NCBI GenBank assembly: GCA_002633005.1 | Contig: NMRA01000584.1 | Location: 130,495-194,494 of the forward strand | From: Phoronis australis | Taxonomy: Eukaryota; Animalia; Phoronida | Direction of reading: 5' to 3' | Length of the DNA: 64,000 nt | Shown here: in pieces, positions 14,550 through 62,731 of the stretch | Position numbering within the stretch: the stretch's first letter is position 1 | Layout: the number at the start of each line of letters is the position of its first letter | Position numbers and translations under genes: made by a program | The notes under the pieces: model-generated | Told to the model about the DNA's origin: nothing | What the model saw: only the letters and a program-made list of their open reading frames with translations | Database searches by the model: none

Positions 14550-15732
14550 AACAAGAGCAACGCGGAGCGTTGGAATGCGCCCACGAATGCATTGAAAATG
14601 GTGTGCTTTAAGGGTTATTTATTTGTATCCTAAAAATGGCCACTAGATGGCGCAAAAACATACAATCCATCCAAAAACAGGAACATGCCATATTTCATAG
14701 CTTTAGAGAAACAAAGGAAAACAGAATAAAACGAAATTGCCACTTGAGTGGGCAGTGTCCGTTGGATCCGCCTGAAAGTCGTCGTCGTCTGTTGTTATCT
14801 TCACATAAATACACTTACTAAATTTAGTAAAGATCCTGCACTGGGTTTAGGAGATACAACTATGGGCAAAACAAAACTACCAAAGTAGTCAATCACCATT
14901 ATCAAAGGTCGTCTTCACACTGAGAACAAATATGCCAATTTTCAAATGATTTGGTTGATACAGGGGTAGACACCAAAAACAAGATTTGAAAACAGCAAAA
15001 ATGGCCACAAGCTGGTGCAAAATACCTCGATTCCATCCAAAAACAGAAAGGTAGCGTCAAGCGTCACCACACCAATAGATGCCTATATTTAAAATTTTAT
15101 GAAAATCTGTTGAGGACCTTTGAAGATACTGAGTTAAACGTAAAAAAAACTAAAATTGCCACTAGGGGGCACAGCAGTAGTCAGATCTGTCCTAAAGTCG
15201 TCGTCATCCGTAGTGAACTTCATATAAATACACTTGCTAAATTAAGTAAAGATCCTGCGAACGGTTTAGAAGATACAGCCATAGACGCAACAAAAACAAA
15301 ACTGCCACTAAGAGGCGCCACAGTAGTCGAAATCGTCGGTAAATCATGGTCAACCGTCCTCTTTATAGTAAGCACATACATGCCAATTTTCACATTCATC
15401 TTTTGAGCGGTTTGGTAGATAGAGGGGTGCCTACATGTTAAATTTCATGAAAATCCGTTAAGGACTTTTGAAGATACAAAGTTAAACGTACAAATAAAAT
15501 AAAATTGCCACTAGGGGGCACACCGGTAGTCGGATCCCTCCGAACGTTCGCCCACTCATGCCGTCCCATTCATGAATGGAACATATGTGCCAAATTTCAT
15601 GAACGTATGTCAAAGGGTTTTGGAGATAGAGCAGCGGACGCCGGACACCAGACGGACGCCGCCCGGACGGATGGACGGACGGACGGAGATGACGGCATAA
15701 TGCGTCCACATATAAATTTGTGGGCGCATAAA
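14550..15732 (+). mobile_element. DINE-1/HINE-like non-autonomous Helentron, copy 1
   Basis: AACAAGAG start, subterminal ATGCGCCCAC, internal tandem subrepeats, (GGAC)n microsatellite, end hairpin TGCGTCCAC..GTGGGCGCAT followed by an A-run. Confidence 0.75.
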
Positions 15733-18356
15733 AAGGAATGTGGAATCGGAATTTCAGAATTCAACACATTCACACTGTTTTTGGCGGATCACTGAATCAA
15801 ACTTTGTTTTGAAATTCTGTTAAGGCCACTGGTATTAAAATACCAAAAATAGACTTACACGAATTTATCTCCGGCATTACTTAGTTTTTCGGAGGGTTTT
15901 CATGAAAACACTTCGATTTTTTACATGAATATATTGTGGTGTTCAGAACACGCAATGGCTCCTCGCAAACAGCCGAGACACCAGTAGGCCTAAACACCTA
16001 TAGACCTTCCCGGATGTTGAATCACTGCTTGGCATGGTAACCGTCATTCTGCAACCGTAATCGGCTACAGATTCCCGGTGATGGAATCAGACTCTAAGCG
16101 AAATGACGATCGGCCGTAAAACCAATCAGCACATTCAAGGTTATGTGGGACCTTATCGATTAGCATGCGTATTTAGCCAAATATTATAAAAATATAGATT
16201 TGAACTCAGTAACAATATATCATGGGCGGCGCACCACTTAATTCAGTGCTGCGCAGCCCACGGTTATATTTCCTGAACGTGATTACGTCACACCCTCAAG
16301 CAACTACTCCGAAAGCAGACAAAGTGGCGGTGTCCCATTCCCTAACGTTTTTGTTCAAACCGGGGAAACCCTTCTCGGTGAACCTCATGTCACAAGATCT
16401 GTGAACCACACAGATTAGTATATTAGCCGCTTGTGTTCTAAAGCAAAAATTAACAGTGAACTTTTGACCCATTGTTATTTCCCCAAGAGAAGCGACAAGG
16501 GTTAGATCCAATTAGATGTCGGAATATCCTAAACCCCAGGAAGTTGTTGTCACCCTTCCCGTGCCCAAATGCAAAGACACTGAACCGGCAAGTGTCCACA
16601 AACTAATCAATCCCCACGTCAGTGGCGAGAAATCGGGCTTCACCATATCAGCATAGGCCTATGTCGAAGGCCGTGATACTCCATCCAGTCAGGTCACACA
16701 CCGGTACATGTGCATGTATAGTATGTAATTACACTGTGCTATTATTGATCACAGCACACACGACTGGGCATCCAGTAAAAAGGTGTGCCTGGAATCATAC
16801 AAGAAATTGAATAGCAAGCCTACGCTGACACGGCTTTGTCCAATTCCAAGAATTCCGAACCGAAGACCATTAAAACGGTTAAATGAAAACGTAAATGAAT
16901 GGTCAAGGGACCGGTTGATTTAGCTTGGTGGGTTTATTGAAATCTACCCCTGCCTGCTCATCAAGGTTATGTATGGCTAACAATGAACCGAATGACAAAA
17001 AGAAGAAACGTTCCCAAGTGACGGACGCATCTTTCCAGAAATAAATAGGTTGATAGGATCGGATAGAATTTTTTTCGTAAATTTAACAGCAAGAAACGAT
17101 TTGGTTTTGCATGAATAAATTCGAAATGATGATAAAAAGAGAAGAGGAAACTAGAAATAAAAAACAGGCAGTCCTCTTAAAAATGGAAAATCACGAGTCC
17201 TGATCAGTGGTACGTGCATCCAACCACTTCACGCCTACATGATCGTGCTACCTACCGTTTGGTAATTTCACAATACACCAGTACGTGATGTCAATTACTC
17301 CGTAAACCAACTCATACACACCACTAGTGTTACTCATGGGTATAAATGCAAGTCACGCCTTAGTTTGCAAGCGCGCCCATATTACCATCGCTGACCGCTA
17401 TGGAACTGTCGACAGTAAATTACGCTTGTAAATAATCGGAGCAAAGACACGTTTCGCGTCCTTTTACGAACGCAATCGTTACGTCCAGTGAGAGATTATA
17501 GGTTATATATAGGCATAGGTCATGTGAACACTTGAAACGCCCGTAAAATTACGCTCCTCTAGTAGGCCTGAAGAACGACCAGCGTAAATATTTCGAGCAA
17601 TGATAGGCTATGCAGGGTCTTCAACGACAAGTCTGTTTACTCAGCCAAATATATACAAAACCGTAACTCAGTCAAAATAAGTTTCTGGAACGTACGAAAC
17701 TTCATTTTTGAGTTTATACAAACTACAACCACTTGGGACTGGGTCTAGTTTTTTGTAAAATTTAGCGAAACATAAAGGGATATTCATGGCCAAACAACGA
17801 AATCAATAACATGAGAAAATTTCAGTTGATATAAATGTCCGAGATAACACCTAAGAAACGCTGCTACGGATTCCTAATTAATCACTTGGGTTTTCGTTTT
17901 ATACAATTTCTCATTTGTTCATAAAAATCGTAGAAGTCCTATTTTCGATAGCCTCTCATGCAAAAAGCGAAACATTTAATTTCTCACAGCGTTTTGGAAT
18001 ACAAAGGCATGATAAAGCATAGCATCTAAAAGTTTCATATGAATCCAATCGGCAATTACTGCGATGTTCTGAAGGTAGCCATATTTGGTCATTTCATAAG
18101 GGGTCCTACACAACCTCTGAAGCCATTAATTTACGCTTGTAAATAACCTCACAGCTCCACTCTCGTAATTTAAGCTCGTGAAGCAAGCTGACAAAACGCG
18201 GCTGCGTAACTTACGAGCGTAATCTATTCCGAGTGACACTTTCCACCAGGTGAAAGCCAGTAGAACAAATTAAACGTAACTGATGTCATCAATATGAGAT
18301 ACAACTAAAATAGCTTCAGAGAAATGTTATACAGAATAACTGGGACTCGTGACTAG

Positions 18357-18362
18357 TTTATT
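18357..18362 (-). terminator. Candidate polyadenylation signal (AATAAA) of RNF121
   Basis: AATAAA on the minus strand about 175 nt after the stop codon. Confidence 0.35.
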
Positions 18363-18537
18363 TTTTGTTTTAATTAATTCCTTTTGACTTAAATATATCT
18401 AACAGGAATCAAAAACATTCACAGTCTCCCGTTTTTTAAAATATTACAATACACATAGCAGAGAAGGTTTACACGCCGTCTGATAACCATGTGTAGGAGG
18501 ACATAAATCAACAACAATCTAATGTAGTGAATTATGG

Positions 18538-40749
<22,212 letters not shown>

Positions 40750-41373: not shown

Positions 41374-41426
41374 ATGACTACAACTAACGTGTATCAAGGA
41401 CGCGCGTTGGACAGAAACACATCAAG
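41374..41426 (+). CDS. Jupiter: Jupiter-like exon 1 (MTTTNVYQGRALDRNTSR)
   Basis: caaaATG start and AAG|GTAAAA donor, phase 2. Confidence 0.85.
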
Positions 41427-47400: not shown

Positions 47401-50400
47401 ATTTGTCACGCTTTTCTTTCCAAGTAGAAAGTCAAAAGTGTATTTTCCTCTTGCCTGATAACACTGGTTGCTTGCTGTTATGTTGAGCAGGTTGCTGTGT
47501 TAGTGGTTATTTTATTAATAGCTCCCCTGTTTGTAGAGCCTTGGCATGCTTAGACTAGGATTCCAAGCAGTGATACTGCTTAACATAAATCATGTTCAAT
47601 TATTGATTTGCTAGCAGGCACGCCTTGTTGTTTTCAACTGTAGGAAGCTAGGAATCCAAAAGCAGGTTCTATGATCTTTATTGTTATTCTGTGTTAAAGG
47701 GTCAGGTTTCCCACCGGACTTGGCTTCTAAGTGCAGTAGGATTGTTTGCTTAGACCTTGTGATTCTCAAAATCCTGTGTACTTACACAGAGTAGACCTTG
47801 TATCAGTGGAGGAATTCCTTCCTGTGTTTAAGCATCCGAGGCTGCCTGCCCTTCATCTGGATAGGTTATAGGGTCTTGGTTGGCTAATCTGTCAATCAAT
47901 ATTGTTTGATATCGAAGGCTCTGTATGGCAGCATGTTCTGCAGAAAAATGCACACCAACTGGTGTTTTCAAGATGTACAGGATGTCTAGTAATGAAATTT
48001 CTTATATTACATACCAGGCTGGGTTAGAACTTCAATTTTAATCTCTCTTGCACATGTTTGTTTGCACTTTAGGTTTTTGAACTAATCTTTGAAACTTGAA
48101 GCAAAACCAAGCTCTGTTCATGTTTAAACATAGTAAATGAAATATTTGCAAGTAGTTCTGTAGCTATGTGCTTCTGTCTCAAAGTCCAGAATTAAAGTTT
48201 GCAAAATCAGGGACACCCTGCTGATTAACCTGTGCTTAATTCCAAGTCACCATTGGGTAAATATTGATCCATTCTTGGACCTTTTTGTCTTTTACAATTC
48301 CTGATGGAAAGAAATCCATGCAAGTTTGACCTCTCATTATGGCCGTAGTTTATTGAGCATTTGGCATCTTGGTTGAAGTGATAGCTTATCACCACATAGT
48401 GCTCAGTGTAGAGTCTTCCAAATTATATGTTTGTCTCCAAGAGTGTTCATTGTTTGTGGTCAATCAATGTTTGAATTATTAAGCGACTGAAATGTAGTTT
48501 GTTTCTGTGATTTATTTGTCTACAGTACCAAGGTACCTAAACTACACTGTTAAGGGACTCATAAACACGGTCACGGATGTATGAACATGACTCACGAACC
48601 TGCAAACACCGTCCACTGACTCACAAACACGGGAATGGACTCACAAAACACGATCCATTCACCCAAATACAGGGGACACAGACTCATGTTCACGAGGAAA
48701 CACTGTTAACGGACCGCCAAACACTCATCGGCTTCCTGGCTCGGCTGACATCTACATTTTGTCCGTAAACCGTGTTTAGCGGTCCGTTAACCGTGTTTCT
48801 TCGTGAATGTGAGTCCGTGTCCCGTGTATTTGGGTGAATGGATCGTGCTTTGTAAGTCCGTTCCGGTGTTTGTGAGACAGTGGACGGTGTTAGCAGGTCC
48901 GTGAGTCGTGTTCATGTGTCCGTGACCGTGTTTATGAGTCCGTTAACGGTGTAGTTTAGGTACCTTGAGTACTAAATAGGTTTCAGTAATAAGAAATGGG
49001 TCATGCTGCTTGTTGGCTGTTCTGTTCTTGAGTATTTACTAGAGGGTAGTAGACAACAAATGAGCACAAGCCTCACACACAGTTTTTAGAATATTAGAGT
49101 GACCTAGTTTTGAGAACATCTCAACAAGCTGAACAAAAATAATTGTCAAAATTACTCTTTCTTCATTTGTCATTTGTCATTTGCCTCTAACGTTGTGAAT
49201 GCCCTCACGTTTTCAAGATGTCTAGTGGTACCTATGCCGTGGTAAAAAACAAATTGTAAAAGCATAGATTTTGTGTTAGATATAATTATGGAAAGATGAG
49301 AAAAAAATTCACTAGTACACCATATTGTGTCCAGAAGTGCTGAGATTTAGGAGCATCTCTGGTGACTTGTAATAATTAGGTCAAGTCTAAATGGTCATAA
49401 ATAACTTGAAACCTTGAATAGAGTGACCTCTCCAGGCAGTGGCTGAATAGAGTGACCTCTCCAGGCAGTGGCTCAGTCAGTACCACTTTGCCTTTGCTCA
49501 TATCAAGGATTTTTGTTGTGAACTCAGAGAGCCCTAGATTTCTTGGCCAAACTTCGGCCCCATTCTCCTCTGAAAAATCCCATGAAATTCCCATCATGAG
49601 GCCCAAAAATTTCTCTCAAGTTATTGAAAAATTCACCTCGATGTTCAAATCACTTGTAACAGACACACGTGACACTTTGAATGAGCGCAAAAAGTTAGTT
49701 GTGACTACTTGAGGCAGAACCTGTGAGGGCTTGTAACAGGGGTGAGAGGCCGTTATTGGTGGTGATTGAAGGGTAGAATTTTCCTCTCCCCAAAATTCCG
49801 CTCAGAAGACATAGGCAACTTTACCCAGGGTGATCGACTGCCTTGATTCAGATAGTATAATTTACAACTTAGAATTCACTGCCATCTTATAACCATGCAG
49901 TTCATGATCTAAAAAATTAACGACAACATCCAGGTTTTGAAATGTAAGCATGCACCAGCTTCAGTAACACATTTGCTTCACAGGGAAGTGGGAGTAGAGT
50001 TGCCTACACTAGGTACAGGCAACAGATTCATCTTGACAAACACGTTATAATGTAGCATGAAAGCCTGTTCAAAACTTCCTTTAATCTTGATTTACCCCTG
50101 ACACAGGATTTTTAATACGAATGTGGACTGATCCAAGGGTGATGTCAGGTTACGTGGACCGAGGATGAGCAATATTGCCTGATGGCATAGTCCGGGAACA
50201 ATATTGTTCTCCCGAGGTTGGTCCATATGACCTGAAACTTCCAAGGAATCAGACAACAACCACTGGTGCTTCTTTCTGTTGTTTTTTGTCTCTAATTAGA
50301 TAAGCTTCTTCTCACCTGCTTTGATGTACTAACATCGTCTGCTCTCTTTGTGGTCAGGGTTTCTGGTTTCTGCAGTATCTGATTGGTCAGATCGCGAATA

Positions 50401-53400
50401 GCGATATCTGTTGTCCTGACAATCTGAACAAAGAGTAATATTCTGTGGCCTCGTTGGTCAGTATTGCAGTATAGACAGTTATCATACTGCGTTTCATTGA
50501 TTCAGAAGACAGCAGTACTACTGGCCAGTGGCCATGTTAGAATAACAGTTATAGTGCAGGTGAGACCAAGTGGGTGGTCACAGCTTCGTTATTGCATTAT
50601 GTTGTCCTCAAAGATTTTGCGTAAAAATGAAAGTTGCACTTGTTGAGTGAATTTTTATTGACCTTAATAACTTTTCAGAGTACTGGCAGAACCTGGTGGT
50701 GCTAGCAGCGACATTTTCGGAACCCGTGGAACTTCGTATCCTCAAAGAGAGCAGCCAGCGAATCAAGCAGCACCACCTATGGAGCAATATGAGCGAGCCA
50801 AGCCGTCGCACAGCATTCACGAAAACAATGACATCTTTGGTAGCGGAGATAAGAATGCCATGCACGTTCCAGAACCCCACCATGGCCGACGTATAGGTAC
50901 TTGCGCGAGGTCTTGAAAGTGTTTCTGTGCACTTAAAGCAGTTTTTCTCTCTTATCTGTTTTGAGTAGCCAGCGAGATGTTCAACTTCAAAAAAAATAAC
51001 ATCCAGTTCGGTGTAAACGTCATCATTCAATGTTCTACACAGCCTGTTTTGCAAAGTCATGAATCAACCTTATAATTTCCAGTAGGTCTTCTTTTGCTAT
51101 AAACATATTAGCGAGCACAAAATCAGGATGTTGGTACTTCATGCAAAGTTGGGCTCTTAAATTATAAAATTCAAAATATTGTGGGTGTGTGCTTAACTCT
51201 ACAGAGCCAAACAATAGCCTGGCACAGTGTGCGCTTAATTGAAAATTACCAAAAGTAGTGGATGGGTGCATAGCGGAGCAGTGGGTGCTTACCGTTANGG
51301 GGGGGGGGCGTATTCACAGTAAGAATTTGATAATTCCAACTCGATGTCATAGTTTAGGTTTTTTAAAAAATTCATCTTCAAAGCAAAAAATGACAATTTT
51401 CACAACAATAGTGGTCACGTGGTAGTCGTAGTGCGACGTCTTAGGCATTATTTGCTATCTTTCAATTATGATCATAGATACAGAAAATTTTGAGAGTTTA
51501 AAATGCACACTCAATCAATTGTCAAGATATTTATATTTTCTCTTCAAATACTTGAAGGTCTCAAACCAAAGGATGAGTCTTCATTAAACGTAATGGGTGG
51601 ATCACAGGTAGGCGGTGACCCTCAGGTACGAGGTGACTCCAAGACGATCTCGCAAGAAGAGGCCAAGGCTGCAGTGCAAGGTCAACGATTCAAAGCCAAG
51701 GGTCAAGGTGGGTGTCTTTGGTACCGTATAGTGGTGCCGTGGATGAAATCTAATTTGCATTCATTTTTTTGTTTCAGCAGTTCACAAAATGATATACAGC
51801 CGGTTTGAGAATAAACTGGACAGCTTTAAAATGTGACACTCTTTCGGCGCACAAAATCATGCTAAAGACCCAGTTTGTTGTATTAGAATCAGTTTCATTT
51901 TAGGCTAATCTAGCCAAAATTTTGACAGGTCTCGTTCAATGCGAAGGATGCAATAGCGTCACATTAAACTCGATCTTGTGTTTGACAAAAATGCCACAAA
52001 AGTTCAACTAAACTGGACAAACAATTCTGGTGAGACGATTGTCCACCAAGTTTGACAAAACCCTGTCTAGTGTTCTTCAGAACTCAGTCCAGTTTATTTT
52101 TAACAAACTGGAACGTATACTTTGAGATGACAATAATGTTCGTATTAGACTCTTCTGATTCTCTTGCTTTGCTTAATTCTGAACAAGTTAAAAGCATTCT
52201 TTTATAGCTAAATTTACCACTATAGATTCAGCTTTGATCTGCATGAGACATTGCAGTTCTGTACACTTTGCTTTTATGTTGCCCAGATAAAGGGCGATGA
52301 TTAGTAATGGTGATCGTGCTTTTCAGATTATGTGCCGTGACTACACCGTATCTTTTCAATGTTTTGTCTTAGCTGCTGGAGCTCTTCTGTTTTTGGGGGG
52401 CTCATATCTGCACAGCTAGCTACCTGGTCAATCATTTGTGGGTCATGTAGTGTCCCTAATTGCTCACAAATGTAGTCCTGGTAAAATGTATAGACTATTG
52501 TCTTTTATTTCTGTTCTGCATGTATTCATTGATCACAACTGTTGACCTGATAAAATGTGTAGGCTTACCGTATTTCTGTGCTGCGTATTCTTTGCGCCCA
52601 CAGATTTATATGTGGGTGAATAGTGCTGTCATCTCTGTTTGGGCATCCGGCATCCGCAGCTGAATCTCCTAAACCTTCATACTAGGTTCTCGATAACATT
52701 TGGCAGATGTGTTCCTATGAAGCTGACAATGGATGAAGGCGAGTTTCGAACCTGTCTGACTGCTGGTGTGCCCCCTTATGGCAATTTTAGTTTTTACGTT
52801 TACTTCTGTATCTTCGGAGGTCCTTAAGGATTTTCATAAAGTTTGGCAGTTAGTCATCTATTAGTGAGGTGTTTTCGGATGGATTCGAGGTAATTTGCGC
52901 TACATAGTGGCCATTTTTACTGTTTTTGTGTCTGTTTTTTGCCGTCTTTCCCTCTGTAAACCAAACCACTCGGCAATTTTTTTATTCCCATGCCCATATC
53001 TCCTAAACCCTCTGCAGGATATTTAGCAAGTGTATTTATATGAAGTTGACTAGGAATGACAACGACTTTCAGACGGATCGGACAAACACTGTGCCCCCTA
53101 GTGGCAATTTCTTTTTTTCTCTCTGTGTTTCTTTGAAGCTGTTATCAGATTTTTATGAAATATGGTAAATAGCTTTCTATTGAAACAATGACATGTTCCT
53201 GTTTTCAGGTGGATTCGACATATTTGCATCATCTAGTGGCCATTTTTTCTGTTTTTTAGCTTTTTTTGGCAACTGCCCCTCTATCAACGAAACCACTCCC
53301 ACTCTGAAGACGATCGTGAAAATTGGCATGTATGTTCTTAGTGTGAAGAGGACTGTTGACGATGATGTTCCGACAACTTTAACTATTATGGCACCTCCTA

Positions 53401-56400
53401 GTGGCAGTTATTTTTTGCACATAGTCTCCTAGTGGGAATTTCATTTTTTTTTTTCGTTTTCCTTGGTTTCTCGGAAGTTCCTTGACAGATTTGCATGAAA
53501 TTTGTTAAATAGCTTTGATGACGTAACAGTTTTCGGATGGATTCGACGTATTTTTCGCCGTCTAGTGGCCATTTTTGATACAAATAAACATCCCTAGAAG
53601 CACACTGTTTGCAGTGCATTCGTGGGTGCATTTCAACGCTGCGCATTACTTTTGTTTAGGAAAGGGCAATAATCGCTGGACCCCTGTAACTGAAAACAAA
53701 ACTGCAGGTGGTTCACACATGTTTTTGCGCTCTACCTGCAAAGTATCCCATATAACAATACCGTGCTGCCTTTTAATGTCATGTGACTGCTGATACCCGT
53801 TCAAAAGTCTGCTGCAAGCCTCCTATTAACATTTTCTATGCTATAGGCTTCCCACTGTTACCCTGTGAAAGGTTTTCCAGGGAAAGCTGGTCTATTTCTA
53901 CAGCTCCCTGACCTAGTATTTCTGGTTTCTCTTCCATTGTCTGTGTTGAGAACTGGTAGTCTTTGGCAATTATGTTAAAACTTCACGTGCGAGCATTGGT
54001 GGCAGTTGCAAAGTGATGGAATGAAAGAGGAGAATAAACATCAGATTTGCATTGTGGGTACTTAGAATGGCCACCACACACAATCTGAGCTTTAGAAGTG
54101 GTTTTGCTGAGATAATCTTGGAAATATGCAGTTTTCGAACTTCTCTAATTTAAACTCCGGTTTTGCTGCCACATATTTGCACCTGGGGTTCAGCTCAGGT
54201 GACCTCCCCTAACTCGTAGAAATTCAGGGCACTTTTAGTCTGACAAGTGATTTGGGATAGCTAATGTTCAAAATATTTGTTAAAGACTGAGGACTAAAGC
54301 CGAATTGAATTTTGGCCTTGATACTTTGGCTCACATTCATTTGAGATTGTTGGCTTTCTCGGCACTTTCTGGACAGTGTTTACGTGTGACGTATCCTATG
54401 AGGATCTCAATTGTTACTTGTCTGTGTGCGGTTCGCAGATATCTTGAATACTTCCATGTACTGCTGCCTCCTTCCCTTCAAGGAAGTCTTGAGTTGGTTT
54501 AATTTTGCCCGAATTCAAAAGATTCTGTAGGTGGCCTGACCCCTTGTGGTGCTCTGAAACAACCAGGCAACATCCACAAGTCTTCACTCGACTTTTGCAC
54601 CCAAAATTTCTTGACAGTGAATGCTGGTTTTAAGTGAAATAAAAATGCCGTTAAGTACTCTGGTTCATATGATTGGATGTCATTGAATCCACAACAAAGC
54701 ATAAATTTGATATCTTACTGCACTGTTTTAATAGGCCTTTTGGCTTCAACTGGGCTTGTTCGCATAATAAAAAGAGAAACACAACTTTTCTCCTGTTTTA
54801 GCTATCACTGGCTCAAAAGTATCACTATATATTATAGTTGCATACGTCATAGTTGCATGTTTGAGTTTATGAATTCTGTCGCTAGTGCCACCTAGTGTGT
54901 GGTCTATGAAACATAGTAGACTTGCTCCGATGCTGTCTTCTCAGAACAACTCGATTTTTTAATACCTTTGCCACTGCATTACAGTGCAGGTCATGAATTT
55001 TTGTCCAACCAGAAGTACAGTCGCCTCCAGCAAGGTGAGCAATGGTTTGCTAGAAGCCGTTAACTCGATCCAAACAGCGGTCGACACTCGGGTGACAAAT
55101 CATCAGCACAAGCTTTGGCTCATTCTTTGGAATATTGTGCTCGCCATAAAAACTGGTGAAAATCAGAAAGCGCAGGATCTGGCACAATAGCAGGTGTTTT
55201 AAAGGGGTTGTTCAAGAACCTTTATTGAAGCCAGCACTGAAATACATGTAGGGCTTAAACACATATTGTTTCAATATATTATGTCTCTTAGGTTGTTAAT
55301 CGTCTACATGGACAAGCTACTAATAGGCATACACTCAGATAATCCGATTAATTCCCACTTACTGACTACAGATATGTTTTATAGTGCAGTTGCACTTTGC
55401 TCCATTTTTGTAAGTTTTCTATTCTGAATAATCACAAGAGTAGCTTACTTGAGAAATTTGCTATTAAATGGTTATTGAGTTTTTCAAGTAATGTGCCCCA
55501 CCAGTCATTTGAAACTTGTAGTGCTGGAGTGTGTGCAGTGCTGTCTATTTCTTATCTCAATTAAGTTTCATGAACCAACAAGGCGAGTGAACAACTTAAA
55601 TTGTTGAATCAAAAACATGCAATTTCTGTAACCACAAATTTTCCTTACAGCATTATGGCTGAGCCTGGCATGCGTGTATCCTTAACCCTCGCGAGGAAAT
55701 ACAACAGCATCGCATGTACCCGCACTCTATAATTTATCACCTTTCTTCTAGAATCGTCACAGTGCTTTTATCAATATAAAGAAATTGGGAGAAGTTTAAT
55801 TCACTGTAATGAGATGTGGTATTCTCTGCAATCAGTTGATTACTTATAGCCATCTCTTTACAACATTATTTGCTTGAATTGGTCTTGTCTGTTCAAGTCA
55901 TCCCTTCTGCTGTCTTCAGGCACACAAGATCTTCCTCCAGTAAAGCACATGTCTGGCATTTTCTTACTCTGTATCTGTTATGGTCTCTGATCTCTCCACT
56001 GGTCCTGAGTTCACACATACATAGTCTATAGTTAGTTAGTTGCGTAGAGTTGCCCATTACAATAAACAAGTGAGGGTTTGGCTGAGTACTAGATGTTTGT
56101 GCCAAAATGGCCGGAATTGGCGTAAGATACCCAGAACATTGCATGTGTCTTTTTACCTTCAGCACAAACCCATAACCCGCTGAATTGGCTGGCTAACAGA
56201 GGCTACGAAAACACACAGCCCAAATGTTGGGACGATCAGCCGACTCCTAAAAAAGTGCCAGGAAAAGGTACCGGTCGTTATTAATGGTCCGCCGTGATTT
56301 ACTAACGAGTCCCTGTTATGGTTGAGTTGACACCGTTTGCTGTTTCCAACACCCATGTGTGCTAATGGGAGTCATTGCTGCCTCAGGAGCTTGTAAAATT

Positions 56401-59400
56401 GAAGTGAAATTTTAGTAACTCAAAATTACCAAACGACACAATTTGGTCTCGAGATGTTATGGCAACAGTGACTTGTGTGGAAAGCTGCTTTAGTCCAAAT
56501 TATATTTATGCTGGTAATCAACTTGTTTCTCTTAACTCGGAAGAATGCTGGAATTACAGCCTAAAATCTCATCATTCTTTGAGATTTCCCGCGCTGAAAT
56601 GTTAAGTCGGTTGCTTAGCTAGAACTCGTGGCATGGAACGCAATGTTAAACTACGGGTGGTGAATGAGTTTTCGTGATTGCAGTCCAGACACATAACCTG
56701 TTTACATGGCAGCCATACCCGGGCTTTGACGATATCACTCCCGTCGAACGTACTCCTATAGTTATCAGGATGAAAGGAAAAGGTACACAGTATCTAACTT
56801 AGCGCTGTTGTTGTACACTGTAGTTGCTGCTGCTTCTCATGTTGGCAAGCGCGCATGGCCTTGCATAGATAGAGACACGTGCACGCACTCGGCTTGGTTC
56901 ATGCATTAGGCATGTTGTCATTATTGTAGGTAACACGTAGTTGATAGAATAAACTAAAGCCACCACTTCACAGATCTCACTTGAGCAGAGTTGTGTACAT
57001 GAATGGGTATCTTTATGTCTCAGGTGCCAGATTCCTCCTGCCAAGGGAGTATGAGATTGATGTCCGCAACAGAAGTCTAGGTGTCCATGGATTCTGTCCA
57101 GGCATTCTGGTTGCCTGCTTGAAGATAATAATGTGTAAAAAGAATACTTCATTTTCCTGTGTTATTTCCAGTCTCGTCTGTTGGTTTCAGTAGTCTTGCC
57201 AAGCATAGGAATTTCATGCTTGTGCAGGAAGTAGAGGTGATCTTGCTAGACTTGTCTTTAATGTGCCCGATTTCATCCAAGTGTAAGACATGTCTTGATT
57301 GGAGACCCACTGGTATTGCAGAACTTCAAGAGAGGAGCAGGCATCGTTAGCACTCTTGGTATATTCTGTGTCCTGTCGGGCGGATGGTCTCGAGGTATCA
57401 CAACGCACACTCCACAATTGATGCACTGTGTCGTTCTTCACAGATGGTTGCCATACCCTTGAAACTCCAGCATCATCACTGTCTTCATCATCAGATATCC
57501 ATTATATCACATGCTTCACCACTGTCACTCTTGACTTCTGATGACAGTAGTTGAATTCCCATCACTGCTTCTGGCACCATATTCAAACTTCTTAGTCTAT
57601 CAAGTTTCCAGGCAGAAAGCACCAAGTGTTTTTCACTAGTAATCAAACCAACACACTAACACAAAGACAAGTGTGGAAAGCGGACCGCTTGGCAATGTAG
57701 ACCCATTGATTTCATTTCCTTGATGCTAGTTTCTCAGTTGGGCATAGTGTTCAATGCTCAATGCACTACAGTGACATCACACTTTGCCTTGTGGTGGTGC
57801 AATCAAGCGGACAGTGCAAGGTAACTGGATTGTCTCCCACCATCTGTTGTCCCCTTGATACATTTAGTAATTGTTCACCAAAGGAATGAACAACTACACG
57901 CCTCATAGTTGTACGTGTGCAAAGTATAATGATCGAGGGATTTGGCATGGTGTAATGCGACATGCGATCGCACATTGGGATTACACTTGATTGTATAATT
58001 ACTTTGGAGCATCGGAGAAATAAGAGACACTATTCCATTCCTTGTGCCCGTCTGATGAACTACGATCCAAGCTGTGGCTAGCAGCAGGGTTCCAGGACAC
58101 AAGCCATTAGTTCACCAGCCTCAGTCTATGTCTTTGTCATCAATAATACCACTGGTTGTGTATCCCTCTAGTATCTTCCCACAACCCAATCACGTGGCGA
58201 CCGGCCGAGGACTCCAAAGACTACTGGTACGGCAACAATAAGTCACCAATGAAACCCATGGATGGCCAGCCATTGGACCAAGAGCGCATCAACAGTGCCG
58301 CTAGACGAGGCCAAGGTACCTCTTGCGTGCTTGTGGTGGATTCGCCACGAAATGTCGCGCCTAGCATTTGTGTGCTCTTCTGTGCAGTGATTTTGACGAT
58401 CTTCATGTTTTGTTTTGCTTTGAGTGATTACTAACAAAAGACGGAGAGAAGCTGAACGCTCTTCACTCTGTGCTAGGCAGGTTTCGTCCATTTTCCGTCT
58501 TCATCATTTCCCGCGTCGTGACCTGCCGGACTTCCAATATCTGTATGAGTTTTTCTTGTCGATGTTTCTGTTTGCTAGAAGTGTAATTTCATTTCAATGT
58601 AACCTGCTTCGCACACATAACAGCCTCACACTTATTGTGACTCAACCTCCAAGTTTTCATACGACATCAATGTTTTTATAATTTTTGACACTTAGTAATT
58701 ATGATTCTTGCGTAGTTTTTTTTATTGTGATTTACTTTTTGGTTTCCAGTGTCATTATCAGCATTAGTATAGCTAGTTATTTCAATTTCATTGCTTTGTT
58801 TCAGATAAGAAGCACTCTGGTACTTTTTGTTCACTGCTGTTGAGCCAATTGTTCATGCGCGATACTGAGTCAGTGGACGTGCAGTGAAATTTTGAAATTC
58901 GCAGTGTTCAAAGTTTCGTTCACATACCATCTACTTGGTTTATTGTTCATATTTTGTTGCAGTTGTTGAGGTGCCATGTTCCGCTTCCTCTCATTTCTGC
59001 TTTCAGGACAACTGTGAGAAGTATAAAGTGATTGAACTCGGGCTTATTTTGTCTGATTTATCAGCATTTTCTAAGAATTTTGCAGCAGTGGACTAACGTT
59101 ATTTGAGCACTTGTTTTTTTGTCATGTACTAGCATAGGGGAAAACTCCTTCGAAGAACAGGCTGTCCTGTTCGATTTGTGACGTTGAAATTTGAAAGGAA
59201 AATGACAAATCATCCGTATGCTGTGTAGGAGAAGTATTTCACTGAATTTTGCTACTTTAGCAAGATTTTTCCAGTAATTTAAACTATCATAATCAATACT
59301 AATTGAAACATGTATTGCACTAAAAAGTGTCAAATCTACAATGTTTTGTGGCGTGACAAAATGATTGCCAAAAGGCAAGAGATTGCGTAACAATCCAAAA

Positions 59401-62400
59401 AGTTTTTTATCTAGCTTTGTTGTCTTTTGTTACAAAACATCTTGTGTGCAGTATGCATTGACCTGTTAACGGATAGCGAGACACTTGATATACATGGAGC
59501 ACAGTGTGATAGCAGTCATCGTTAGCATCACTCTCAGCAGACGGAGATATACGATATGTTCACATACCGTAAATATATTTTAGTTGTATTTCTTGCTGCC
59601 AGAAGCTCAGTTCTTCTTAGATCCGTGTTTAACAGGTAGCGTCTATCCCAAATCGAATGGCACGTTATTACCTGCATGGGTTTTCTGGTTGTAAATTAGA
59701 AGACTAATTTCCCATAAATGTTTGCTCTGGGATGTGCAGACATATTACTAGCCTTTTATAGGTCAATGGTGATAACTGATGAAGGTTACTTGAAATACAT
59801 GTAACTGTGTGGTTGGTAAGTTATCTAGTAAGCCAAACTGGACAAAACAAATTGTTAAATTTTGTAGATTATGCAATCTTAAGGGAGCAAAAATACTCGA
59901 GCAATCAGTTATGGCTATTTCCAAAGCTTAAAATCCTGGCGATATACATTGTTTGTAGAATGTTATTATTGTGTCTAATTGTTGTGGTTTAGCAGAGTTC
60001 AAATTTGATGTGCCCAGGTACTCATGGTGCACGCTAAACTACCAACTAAAAGCTCTTCCAGTCAACCCATACTGATTGGGGTAACCAATAGGTTTTTAAT
60101 GAAAACATAAATCCAGATGGAAATTGTGCTTTTCTATTGGCTGCGTTTGCAAGTTCCACATTTCACCTGAGTGTTGCACTTTTTCCAATTGTTTGGCTCT
60201 TGAACCTACAATTTTCTCGACCAAATTTGAACTCTGTTGTATGGTTGATCCATGAAATTCGCTGTGCTGTGAAAGATGACTGTGGGCACCAGACCTATAT
60301 AAGCTGTCAGCGTGTGCCTTTGCTGCATCAGTATGCATCGGTGACTATTCATGTTTTGTGTTCTCTTCAGCGTCTGCCTATAACCCGGTCAGTTGGTCAC
60401 TCAACCCCGGCCAGTCCGACGAACCCTCGGAACCGTTACGCTCGCCCCGCGGGCACGGTCTAGGCCCCAAAGGTACCCACTTCCCTCGACACAGGGAGAA
60501 CACAAGTCTGCATCTTTAGTTGGACGTCTTGCGTAGTACACATCTATCCAGTGATCACTGATAGTTTTAAGTGATGCTGCCAAGTATAGTGGTCAAGCAT
60601 TATTTGTCGGGCAAAAACGAGGGTTACGTTATATGGGTTCTCTCTTTTGTCTAGCTTTGTGTTTTTGTGAAATTCCATTGATGTGCAGAATCAGTGAAGC
60701 TTTTGATTATTGTCAGTGTGTGAAATTTACAGATATTTTGAGAGGATTGTCATTGTAATGAATTCATTGAATCTAGCCGAGGCTAAAAAACGAATTCATT
60801 GACAGCTGAGTGTCAGTTGTTCTAGCAGTCCAACTATTGAGGGGACTTGTGATCTACTCTCTGCCTGTCGCCTGGTGTTGTGGGCTCAGTGTAGTTCTAG
60901 ACATGCTGTAGGCTGTTGGTGTTGTGGGCTGTTTAGTTGCAGACGCCCTCTAGTGGGATATCCTCTATTGGTAGTGCTGGCTTTCTAACCCTGACGCTTG
61001 GTGTTTTCTTATGTAGCGCTATTTCTTTTCTCGTAGATGTGTGACTCTGTCTTTATCTGTACTCCTTGTTTATTATTTTTGGTGCCTCTGATACCCTTAT
61101 TTGAGTGTTTTGCAGTGTTCTTATTATGGTGATGCATTTCGGGAGCCGTGCAATGTTGTGTCACTTGGCAACGTTCTTTCTTGTATGCAACTTTTTTTAG
61201 TGAACATTCACTTTCCTAAAGTATGTGTTTCGATCAGCTGTTTCTCAAATGTTCTACCAAATAAGTTCATGCTTTTAGTGAACAAACTTATGCTAGGAAG
61301 TGTTATTTTTTTCTGACAAAGACACCGGAAATTGGTTTTCTTGAAAAATTACGCTGCATGGCAAAATCGCATTGAAAAGTCACAAACAACTTTTTAGATA
61401 TAAATCCTGCATGCCAGAATGTATCAGTGAACCCATGTTGAATGTTGTATTATTATAAACTGGAATCTGGGTTCTATTCACTCTGAGCTAGTTTGATCAT
61501 GTTGCAATTGCCTGTACATGTCAATATTCTGTGAGGCCTTGTCAAGGTCGTGACTGGCTAACTACAAAACAGAATGCAGTACTACTGTACTAGTCATCCT
61601 GTGATCTCAGTTGCAGGCAGCACCTGCTATGTGTGGTGTGATTTAGAGCATGTAACCTCACTGCAACTAAGAACTGTTGGCGGACCCCGTACCTTGGAGA
61701 TTGTGGCCATTAATGTTGGCCTCTGATGTTTTTGCCTGTCGTTTACTGTTTTCCTATAACAATGACAATTGATTGTACTTGGACCCTGTAGTCAAAACAT
61801 CATACTGAGAATATGTCCACTTGCGTACTTTGGAACGTAAGATGAGTAGCCAATCGCACTACAGTTATTTCCCTTGTAAAAACCCTATTGTGTTACCATC
61901 AGTTGTAGCTTATTACTATTAAGTGTACAGCCTTACACAGCCAGTAAAATTGGTGAAAAGTGTTTCCATTCAAAAGTTTGTTGACATTTCTAACATTGCT
62001 GCTGGTATGTCCGGCCAGTGTGGTGCTGTGCAAGGAATATTTGCACATGGCCATTGTACCAAGAATGCACTTTTCGCGCTTCGAATTTCTGTATTCACTG
62101 ATGGGCGATCTATTTTAGCGGCGGCCGACCAGCTGAGAGAATCAAGAAAATGTTCATCATTTCAAGTCACATTGAAATCATTCTTTACCCCTTTTTTATT
62201 TCCTTCTACTCATCCCGCCGAACCAGTATAACACAAAGTCTGCCCATCCAAGAGAGGGGCAAGATGGTCTGTCTGTAAACCACTGGCGTAAGGGTTTAGT
62301 TTAATGACTGTGTGTATCTACATGCAGGTCCTAACGTGGTGATCGGTGTTCACAGGTTCTTAAACAGTGATTGCACTTGCTTTTAATGTTTTGCTAACTA

Positions 62401-62731
62401 TGTGGGAGAAGTGAATTAATGTTCTTACCTAGTTGTTGCTCAGTGGGCCAGCTAGCCTCTGGGTTTAAAGATAAAAATGTTTTTTGTCACAGTCATTTTT
62501 TGTGGTAAATTGTGACGTCGTCAATGTGGTTACAAGTTTTAAATTTTGATGTCTGTCAACACATGTAATGGTTTGTTGATTGCTTTGTCCTGGTGTTGTT
62601 TAAACGCAGGAACCTCATTCGATGGTGGTGTATCAGTAGATAAAGGTCTGATCAGTCATCTATGTTTTTGTTTTTCAGCATCAACGTTTAATCCACTCAC
62701 AGGTGAAGACTACCCTGGTGCACCTCCTCAG
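41374..62731 (+). CDS. Jupiter: Jupiter/HN1 (JPT1/JPT2) family microtubule-associated protein, 3'-incomplete; core exons 41374-41426, 50679-50896, 51558-51707, 62679-62731 plus cassette exons
   Basis: The spliced N-terminus MTTTNVYQGRALDRNTS-RVLAEPGGASSDIFG resembles HN1/JPT1 'MTTTTTFKG...SSRVLRPPGGGS' and the Jupiter PPGG..S.IFG motif; a later NPLTG resembles Jupiter NPVTG; all junctions are GT-AG and phase-compatible. Confidence 0.85.
41628..42342. mobile_element. TIR element (TTGACTTACACAAATGATTTTGGTA...TACCAAAATCATTTGTGTAAGTCAA) in Jupiter intron 1; interrupted copy at about 35840-37480
   Basis: Long imperfect inverted arms of about 170 bp; the homologous sequence at 35840-37480 is split by the 36090-37031 insertion. 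Confidence 0.75.
42610..42975. repeat. Dispersed repeat; inverted diverged copy at about 49500-49830
   Basis: GAGAGCCCT, GGGCCTCATGA, CACTTGTAAC and TATTGGTGGTGATTG are shared in opposite orientation. Confidence 0.65.
43986..45375. mobile_element. Non-autonomous Tc1/mariner-pogo-type element with CCGTATTCGCC TIRs and TA TSD
   Basis: TA|CCGTATTCGCCTTAATAACCGCCCA...TGGGCGGTTATTACGGCGAATACGG|TA. Confidence 0.85.
47880..47975 (-). pseudogene. Possible Penelope-type GIY-YIG endonuclease remnant
   Basis: The minus frame LKTPVGVHFSAEHAAIQSLRYQTILIDRL resembles the 'TPVGxHF...H...L' C-terminus of Penelope GIY-YIG domains; short and decayed. Confidence 0.3.
48529..48967. mobile_element. Foldback MITE with CAAGGTACCTAAACTACAC termini and a perfect 5-bp TSD AGTAC
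   Basis: Near-perfect arms of about 195 bp around a short spacer; AGTAC at 48524-48528 and 48968-48972. Confidence 0.9.
50679..50896 (+). CDS. Jupiter: Jupiter-like exon 2 (VLAEPGGASSDIFGTRG...NNDIFGSGDKNAMHVPEPHHGRRI)
   Basis: ttttcag acceptor in phase 2, two DIFG motifs, G|GTACTT donor in phase 1. Confidence 0.88.
51558..51707 (+). CDS. Jupiter: Jupiter-like exon 3 (GLKPKDESS...QRFKAKGQG)
   Basis: 150-nt phase 1-1 open frame with AAG|GTGGGT donor. Confidence 0.78.
52590..53656 (-). mobile_element. DINE-1/HINE-like Helentron, copy 5 (inverted), in Jupiter intron 3
   Basis: TTTGCGCCCACAGATTTATATGTGGG end and GTGGGTGCATTTCAACGCT...TTGTT start read in reverse. Confidence 0.72.
54945..55034 (+). 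CDS. Candidate Jupiter-like cassette exon (EQLDFLIPLPLHYSAGHEFLSNQKYSRLQQG; alternative acceptor at 54990)
   Basis: cttctcag acceptor, 90 nt phase 1-1, strong AAG|GTGAGC donor. Confidence 0.5.
56163..56267 (+). CDS. Jupiter-like cassette exon A (AQTHNPLNWLANRGYENTQPKCWDDQPTPKKVPGKG)
   Basis: ttttaccttcag acceptor, 105 nt phase 1-1, AAG|GTACCG donor, HNPxxW motif. Confidence 0.8.
56684..56782 (+). CDS. Jupiter-like cassette exon B (VQTHNLFTWQPYPGFDDITPVERTPIVIRMKGKG)
   Basis: attgcag acceptor, 99 nt phase 1-1, AAG|GTACAC donor; paralogous to exon A. Confidence 0.78.
57024..57080 (+). CDS. Candidate Jupiter-like cassette exon (GARFLLPREYEIDVRNRSLG)
   Basis: tgtctcag acceptor, 57 nt phase 1-1, weak GTGTCC donor. 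Confidence 0.35.
   Translation: MPDSSCQGSMRLMSATEV
58172..58315 (+). CDS. Jupiter-like cassette exon C (VSSHNPITWRPAEDSKDYWYGNNKSPMKPMDGQPLDQERINSAARRGQG)
   Basis: tccctctag acceptor, 144 nt phase 1-1, AAG|GTACCT donor, HNPITW motif. Confidence 0.8.
58805..58819 (+). CDS. Candidate 15-nt microexon (DKKHSG)
   Basis: tttcattgctttgtttcag acceptor containing TGC, phase 1-1, G|GTACTT donor identical to the exon 2 donor. Confidence 0.45.
60371..60472 (+). CDS. Jupiter-like cassette exon D (ASAYNPVSWSLNPGQSDEPSEPLRSPRGHGLGPKG)
   Basis: ttctcttcag acceptor, 102 nt phase 1-1, AAG|GTACCC donor, YNPVSW motif. Confidence 0.8.
62679..62731 (+). CDS. Jupiter: Jupiter-like exon (ASTFNPLTGEDYPGAPPQ)
   Basis: tttttcag acceptor in phase 1, NPLTG motif, CAG|GTAGGT donor. 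Confidence 0.8.

What the first reader, a model, noticed from the sequence alone, without database searches (positions are those of the whole stretch)
56163..60472. Tandem array of paralogous symmetric cassette exons in the Jupiter/HN1 gene (possible combinatorial or mutually exclusive splicing system)
Seen in sequence: four exons (56163-56267, 56684-56782, 58172-58315, 60371-60472) are all phase 1-1 and multiples of 3 in length. They start with [AV][QS][TSA][HY]N[PL]xxW, end in GKG/GQG/PKG, and share the unusual donor AAG|GTAC(C/A). Each begins like the downstream exon (ASTFNPLTG) and ends like the upstream exon 3 (KAKGQG), as expected if one exon was repeatedly duplicated and then diverged. 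Established: vertebrate JPT1/JPT2 are short proteins, and insect Jupiter carries an NPVTG motif. Inference: this lineage built a modular, alternatively spliced repeat array with up to 2^n isoforms, or mutually exclusive choice as in Dscam. I know of no description of such an array for this family.
Basis: partly seen in the sequence, partly recalled or inferred. Interest (0 to 1): 0.85.

Follow-up and report, generated by a model that had tools for sequence, protein, structure and literature searches.

The report
Optional duplicated exons in Jupiter gene
RNA reads show that this invertebrate's likely Jupiter microtubule-protein gene optionally splices in three duplicated exons and a tiny overlooked exon, in mixes that differ between samples, and each duplicated exon adds a variant of a short motif predicted to grip the inside of microtubules.

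Summary
The array is real, but it is not a Dscam-type switch. All four exons (A-D) have the stated coordinates and phases, and each ranks 1 of 634 acceptors in a leave-one-out test. Skipping all cassettes is common (146 of 309 junction reads leaving exon 3), and A+C and C+micro+D co-occur, so strict mutual exclusion is refuted. Use shifts sharply: A and the microexon appear only in X1/X2, D dominates X3; tissue and genotype are confounded. Constitutive exon 4 reads TFNPLTGEDY, close to the GYNPITGEY loop by which protist CFAP213 binds tubulin's taxane pocket (PMC11642885); the cassettes carry variants ending in W. Human JPT2 is a luminal, taxane-sensitive binder (PMC12773733). Likely mechanism, untested: splicing changes the number and type of luminal binding loops, as tau exon 10 changes repeat number. 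Conservation in relatives could not be tested. Jupiter membership is likely but below Pfam's cut-off on the fragment scanned. New variant of a known kind.

The parts
41374..41426 (+). Exon 1, coding part (ATG to donor), 17 codons plus 2 nt
   Evidence: Loose read ends before exon 2 (148/110/84 reads) map here; ATG and donor located
47633..47665 (+). Alternative first exon 1b (5' end not defined). In-frame stop, so translation would start at the ATG at 50779 and lose the N-terminal PGG repeat (inferred)
   Evidence: 28 loose-end reads in X3 against 84 for exon 1; no such row among those shown for X1/X2; mapping; first ATG
50679..50896 (+). Exon 2, constitutive; PGG-type motif at its start
   Evidence: Junction to exon 3 112/81/110 reads; Pfam JUPITER E 0.04 whole exon, E 0.0073 and 16.3 bits on the first 30 residues, cut-off 27
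51558..51707 (+). Exon 3, constitutive, phase 1-1, basic end
56163..56267 (+). Cassette A (105 nt, motif HNPLNW)
   Evidence: Exon 3 to A 18/24/0; A-micro-exon 4 16/10/0; A to C 2/6/0
56301..56306 (+). ACTAAC, candidate QKI/STAR enhancer 34 nt behind A
   Evidence: function inferred
56684..56782 (+). Cassette B (99 nt, motif HNLFTW); paralogue with intact frame and splice sites, not seen spliced
   Evidence: Rank 1 of 634; no listed joint, intron-level depth; an open 32-codon frame alone has an 18% chance here
58172..58315 (+). Cassette C (144 nt, motif HNPITW)
   Evidence: Exon 3 to C 24/15/13; C to exon 4 7/4/7; C-micro-exon 4 18/7/0; C-micro-D 4/0/0
58430..58435 (+). ACTAAC 115 nt behind C
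   Evidence: function inferred
58805..58819 (+). 15-nt microexon, phase 1-1, basic (KKHS), TGC 13 nt before its start; new here
   Evidence: 14 extra letters between joints in 51 listed reads into exon 4 and 6 into D (table 5c); single match in the window with AG and GT ends
59092..59097 (+). ACTAAC 273 nt behind the microexon
   Evidence: function inferred
60371..60472 (+). Cassette D (102 nt, motif YNPVSW)
   Evidence: Exon 3 to D 7/5/57; D to exon 4 21/12/81
62679..62731 (+). Exon 4, constitutive, phase 1-0; TFNPLTGEDY at 62684-62713, like the CFAP213 taxane-pocket motif
   Evidence: Skip-all joint 77/58/11 and X4 contig; motif score; the next exon lies outside the window

Best explanation
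This likely Jupiter/JPT gene splices three duplicated cassette exons and a microexon in or out in sample-dependent mixes, and each cassette adds a variant N-P loop that is predicted to bind the taxane pocket inside microtubules, so splicing would tune how many and which loops the protein carries. Shown: the exons, their paralogy, the junctions, the preserved frame in every combination, and the sample differences. Inferred: the exons arose by tandem duplication of a unit joining an exon-4-like start to an exon-3-like basic end, so every inclusion places one more N-P motif behind a basic stretch. Inferred: choice is by cell-type splicing programmes (A, C and the microexon, each followed by ACTAAC, in one programme; D in another), not by a one-of-n lock. 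Inferred and untested: the constitutive loop of exon 4 docks in the taxane pocket as CFAP213's loops do, and a second loop 32-52 residues away lets one molecule reach a neighbouring tubulin, working like tau exon 10.
For: Junction tables. All 12 combinations translated stay open. Sample bias: A 42 of 228 against 0 of 81 reads leaving exon 3 (p 2e-6); D 12 of 228 against 57 of 81 (p 7e-31); microexon 51 of 230 against 0 of 99 reads entering exon 4 (p 2e-9). In X1+X2, C follows A as often as it follows exon 3 (0.22 against 0.21, p 0.83). Motif: exon 4 is the best match to GYNPITGEY among 127,948 six-frame 9-mers of the window, D ranks 7 and C 13; 40 of 20,000 shuffles of the 158-residue skip form score as high. 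CFAP213 has two such loops in the taxane pockets of adjacent protofilaments (PMC11642885, section 8). JPT2 is luminal and interferes with paclitaxel, and a Drosophila Jupiter C-terminal peptide changes acetylation (PMC12773733 passages). ACTAAC lies within 300 nt behind A, C and the microexon and behind none of the other 6 exons (p about 4e-3 after 8 tests); QKI promotes inclusion from the downstream intron (PMC9786888 passages).
Against: The CFAP213 paper was found by searching for NP[VIL]TG strings taken from this gene, so the rank is partly by construction; only the flanking aromatic and Glu residues and the shared biology are independent. The cassettes have W where the motif has G, and A and B score poorly (8 and 12 of 53; ranks 443 and 123). 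PDB searches found no CFAP213 or other luminal protein; the exon 4 query gave only staphylococcal Aap G5 repeats holding NPLTGE at E 3.6-4.5, which shows the string also occurs in unrelated proteins. JPT2 binds through PPGGK*S, not an NPxTG loop, and only one PGG lies in the 158 residues inside the window. No binding was tested or modelled. X3 differs in genotype from X1/X2 (e.g. 51623: 83/154, 70/113, 115/115), so the switch may be allelic or sex-linked, not tissue-driven. All three raw runs are one study, and about a fifth of each was read. The ACTAAC pattern was noticed after the fact.
Confidence: 0.5

Rival explanations
1. Regulated cassettes, but the N-P-x-x-W head is a short linear motif for some other partner, or the cassettes are disordered spacers; the likeness to CFAP213 is coincidence.
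For: W replaces G in all four cassettes; only about 8 residues are conserved while length varies from 32 to 47 residues; P/G/S/Q make up 25-52%; NPLTGE also occurs in unrelated Aap G5 repeats.
Against: The constitutive copy matches the protist motif beyond the search word, and sits in a family with luminal, taxane-sensitive members.
Confidence: 0.3
2. Mostly neutral products of exon duplication: low-level inclusion tolerated because the frame is kept, B already decaying, and the X3 difference due to genotype.
For: B is not seen spliced and has a weak acceptor; X3 carries different alleles; no conservation in relatives could be shown.
Against: D is in about 82% of X3 reads entering exon 4 (81 of 99); the N-x-x-x-W head survives in four exons whose bodies have diverged; no amino-acid variant at 3 or more reads is listed in A or C, and one C>T at 60445 in D has 4 of 105 reads.
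Confidence: 0.12
3. A mutually exclusive cluster at the level of single cells (Dscam-like), blurred by leak.
For: Cassette-to-cassette joints are only 14 of 109 cassette exits in X1+X2 and 0 listed of 88 in X3; C and D avoid each other in X3 (p 0.0004); direct C-D and A-D joints are never listed.
Against: Skip-all is 146 of 309; A to C occurs at the rate independence predicts; introns of 416-2,206 nt and 18 AGs between the ACTAAC behind A and B's acceptor rule out a steric lock; no recurrent complementary element links the cassettes.
Confidence: 0.08

Closest known systems
Jupiter / JPT1 (HN1) / JPT2 (HN1L), Pfam PF17054
   Same: Small, low-complexity protein; the start of exon 2 matches profile positions 21-42; exon 1 begins MTTT (likeness to JPT1 recalled, no call).
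   Different: JPT2 has four PPGG repeats; this gene has one PGG in the 158 residues inside the window plus an NPLTGE motif. No description of a duplicated cassette array was found. Drosophila Jupiter is recalled to have several annotated splice forms, not checked here.
Tau (MAPT) exon 10, 3R/4R isoforms
   Same: Works like: an optional exon changes the number of repeats in a microtubule-associated protein (PMC5256094 passages; that the repeats bind microtubules is established knowledge).
   Different: No homology shown. Tau toggles one repeat exon; here three expressed diverged paralogues, a silent fourth and a microexon give alternative types as well as numbers.
CFAP213/FAP213 of Tetrahymena and Chlamydomonas
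   Same: GYNPITGEY loop against TFNPLTGEDY in exon 4; two loops bridge adjacent protofilaments (PMC11642885).
   Different: CFAP213 is a protist central-pair protein with long helices; the authors found no homologue in higher eukaryotes. Here only the short motif is shared, and binding is untested.
Dscam1-type mutually exclusive clusters and tandem exon duplication-derived substitutions
   Same: Tandem paralogous exons of equal phase (general class: PMC8373072, PMC5740500, listing and start of abstract only).
   Different: Zero, one or two cassettes can be included; lengths differ (99-144 nt); no docking/selector element found.

Membership tests
Jupiter/JPT (PF17054) | Pfam match above the curated cut-off (27 bits) | tested here: inconclusive
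   13.9 bits for exon 2, 16.3 bits for its first 30 residues; JUPITER was the only family hit, but only single-exon fragments were scanned, not the spliced protein
Jupiter/JPT (PF17054) | N-terminal PGG-type repeat | tested here: met
   Residues 1-22 of exon 2 align to profile positions 21-42
Jupiter/JPT (PF17054) | C-terminal PPGGK*S repeat | tested here: inconclusive
   The last exon is outside the window; the 30 read letters behind exon 4 translate by hand to a basic stretch ending in two Asn, compatible with but short of the motif
Jupiter/JPT (PF17054) | Binds microtubules | not testable with these tools
   No assay or complex model
Dscam-type mutually exclusive cluster | Tandem paralogous exons of equal phase | tested here: met
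Dscam-type mutually exclusive cluster | One and only one exon included | tested here: not met
   Skip-all 146 of 309; A to C 8 reads, C-micro-D 4, A-micro-D 2
Dscam-type mutually exclusive cluster | Docking/selector pairing or steric exclusion | tested here: inconclusive
   No recurrent complementary element among the 25 inverted repeats shown of 30; steric lock excluded; short selectors need conservation data
CFAP213/FAP213 | GYNPITGEY-type loop | tested here: met
   Exon 4 scores 29 of 53, rank 1 of 127,948; cassettes 8-21; selection caveat applies
CFAP213/FAP213 | Homology beyond the motif | tested here: not met
   No hit to such chains in the PDB sequence searches (short queries, weak test); filed as working like, not as a member
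CFAP213/FAP213 | Loop sits in the beta-tubulin taxane pocket | not testable with these tools
SRRM4/eMIC-type neural microexon (features recalled) | 3-27 nt, frame-preserving, UGC close to the acceptor | tested here: met
   15 nt, phase 1-1, TGC at -13
SRRM4/eMIC-type neural microexon (features recalled) | Neuron-specific inclusion | not testable with these tools
   Tissues of X1-X3 are not given

The most novel reading that the evidence does not exclude
Invertebrate Jupiter proteins are the animal carriers of the CFAP213 taxane-pocket loop that the Tetrahymena study could not find in higher eukaryotes, and this lineage multiplied that loop into a spliceable toolkit: different cell types make Jupiter forms with one, two or three luminal loops, some ending in W, that bridge protofilaments and set microtubule curvature or stability, a tau-3R/4R-like code acting from inside the tube.
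Probability: 0.3. Interest if true: 0.8.

Novelty: new variant of a known kind. Interest (0 to 1): 0.5.

Why it matters
The splicing itself is a known kind of event, but it is now documented by reads in a family where the searches found no such array. The wider value is the motif: the CFAP213 study states as an open question whether higher eukaryotes use other luminal motifs, and this gene offers an animal candidate together with four natural variants and a natural dosage series (none, one or two extra loops). That makes the question directly testable with short peptides, and would tie cell-type splicing to control of the microtubule lumen and of taxane binding.

Tried and rejected
No whole genome is held. 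The run search listed no RNA holder; the four runs came in by species label. Homologue searches with exon 2 found nothing: 18 candidates, none at E 0.01 or better; 11 candidates, none at E 10 or better; 0 hits in the full HMMER scan. These blanks reflect a short, diverged query, not absence. The Atlas gave no answer. The two metagenome loci L001/L002 are chance matches in stop-riddled frames without the PGG motif; rejected. Pfam found nothing for exons 1, 3, 4 or the cassettes. PDB searches gave only Aap G5 repeats at E above 3 and nothing for the cassette profile. A distant branch point locking A against B was rejected. RBFOX motifs show no pattern. Passages of PMC8572007, PMC12154619 and 10.1101/2022.01.23.477438 held nothing on Jupiter isoforms or the motif; PMC13406575 names JPT1/2 as luminal and does not mention CFAP213. 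Earlier scan findings: nothing on this locus; two Jupiter-like genes in other genomes do not bear on it. No structure or complex prediction was run: the cassettes look disordered and no tubulin sequence was at hand.
Full report
Observation. A leave-one-out scan over every possible phase-1 exon of 60-210 nt on both strands ranks each one's first 8 residues 1 of 634 acceptors and finds no fifth copy. Similarity is confined to the head ([HY]N[PL]xxW) and a basic tail; bodies have diverged. Two details were off: the last G of 'GKG/GQG/PKG' is a split codon read into the intron, and GTAC donors also occur on exon 2 and the microexon.

The gene. Stranded RNA reads (X1-X3, one study, about a fifth of each run read) and one contig set (X4) define it: exon 1 (41374-41426), exon 2 (50679-50896), exon 3 (51558-51707), exon 4 (62679-62731), and a last exon outside the window. 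Pfam JUPITER is the only family hit, weak and below cut-off on a fragment, so the family call is likely rather than proven. The neighbouring gene is RNF121; the best named hits of its exon are two nemerteans (81%, 79%), then annelids, a limpet and Lingula (best 120 of 350 listed). The animal is therefore likely a lophotrochozoan; the top hit (84%) is unnamed.

Splicing. Junction reads, X1/X2/X3. Leaving exon 3: to A 18/24/0, to C 24/15/13, to D 7/5/57, to exon 4 77/58/11 (15 joint rows shown, 13 weaker rows hidden). Among the cassettes (6 joint rows, none hidden, listing threshold 3 reads): A to C 2/6/0, A-micro-exon 4 16/10/0, C to exon 4 7/4/7, C-micro-exon 4 18/7/0, C-micro-D 4/0/0, D to exon 4 21/12/81; table 5c adds A-micro-D, 2 reads in X2. 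No listed joint or shown loose end touches B (7 loose-end rows were hidden), and its bin has intron-level depth. All 12 combinations translated keep the frame.

Logic of choice. Strict mutual exclusion is refuted: skip-all is 146 of 309 reads, and cassettes join each other. In X1+X2, C follows A at 0.22 and follows exon 3 without A at 0.21, as independence predicts. Against simple independence: in X3 at most 2 of 9 C exits go to D where 84% is expected (p 0.0004), and the microexon was seen only behind A (at least 88% of non-C exits) or C (72%). A mixture of cell types with different programmes explains both; this is inference. A and the microexon are absent from X3 and D dominates it (p 2e-6, 2e-9, 7e-31; reads, not independent animals). 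X3 also uses another first exon near 47665 in 28 of 112 loose-end reads, which would drop the N-terminal repeat. X3 has a different genotype from X1/X2 and tissues are not given, so tissue, sex and allele cannot be separated. ACTAAC lies behind A, C and the microexon and behind none of the other six exons, the position from which QKI promotes inclusion in mammals (PMC9786888, passages); this was noticed after the fact and is a lead only.

What the cassettes may do. A search for NP[VIL]TG strings turned up PMC11642885 (passages and section 8 read): Tetrahymena CFAP213 puts two loops with consensus GYNPITGEY into the taxane pockets of beta-tubulin on adjacent protofilaments, and the authors found no homologue in higher eukaryotes. 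Exon 4 reads TFNPLTGEDY. It is the best match among 127,948 window 9-mers, D ranks 7, C 13, B 123, A 443, and 40 of 20,000 shuffles of the skip form do as well. Because the paper was found with this gene's own string, that rank is partly built in. Independent support is biological: human JPT2 is a luminal protein that interferes with paclitaxel, though through PPGGK*S repeats (PMC12773733, passages). Each cassette puts one more N-P head behind a basic stretch, so isoforms would carry one, two or three loops. That would work like tau exon 10 (PMC5256094, passages). Against: W for G in every cassette, poor scores for A and B, NPLTGE in unrelated Aap G5 repeats, and no luminal protein in the PDB searches. 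Binding was not tested.

Novelty. Five searches on Jupiter/JPT/HN1 with splicing, microexon or evolution terms (listings and abstract starts) showed no description of such an array. A search for the motif strings and CFAP213 gave 5 papers, 4 listed, of which only the CFAP213 study is relevant. The library lacks most subscription papers, including, as I recall, the original Drosophila Jupiter paper, and database annotations of Jupiter isoforms were not seen. Tandem exon duplication with alternative splicing is a known class (listing only). Conservation in relatives is untested because no homologue could be retrieved.

Verdict. Observation confirmed; interpretation partly supported: combinatorial and sample-biased, not Dscam-like, with one silent paralogue and one extra microexon. 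New variant of a known kind, interest 0.5; 0.8 if the luminal-loop mechanism holds (probability 0.3 for the full form).

Noticed in passing
window 18541-32895, minus strand: RNF121-like RING ligase gene, six tblastn segments, head to head with the Jupiter-like gene; used to place the organism.
   Followed up: partly
window 47633-47665: Alternative first exon used in X3 (28 reads against 84 for exon 1); would give a protein starting at 50779 without the N-terminal PGG repeat.
   Followed up: partly
window 52500-53620: Interspersed repeat copies in the intron behind exon 3 attract many divergent reads from transcripts elsewhere; their joints are not GT-AG and are not splicing of this gene. Similar text recurs on the minus strand at about 14800-31700.
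   Followed up: no
window 56990-57700, minus strand: Acidic, stop-interrupted frame between B and C that looks like a decayed DNA-transposon piece (piggyBac-like by recall, not tested); slightly raised read depth at 57050-57509.
   Followed up: no
window 48520-48970: About 450-nt element with long inverted arms upstream of exon 2, MITE-like by eye.
   Followed up: no
window 50800-50895 (exon 2): A second DIFG motif without a preceding PGG, at residue 69 of the skip form; may be a degenerate second Jupiter repeat.
   Followed up: no
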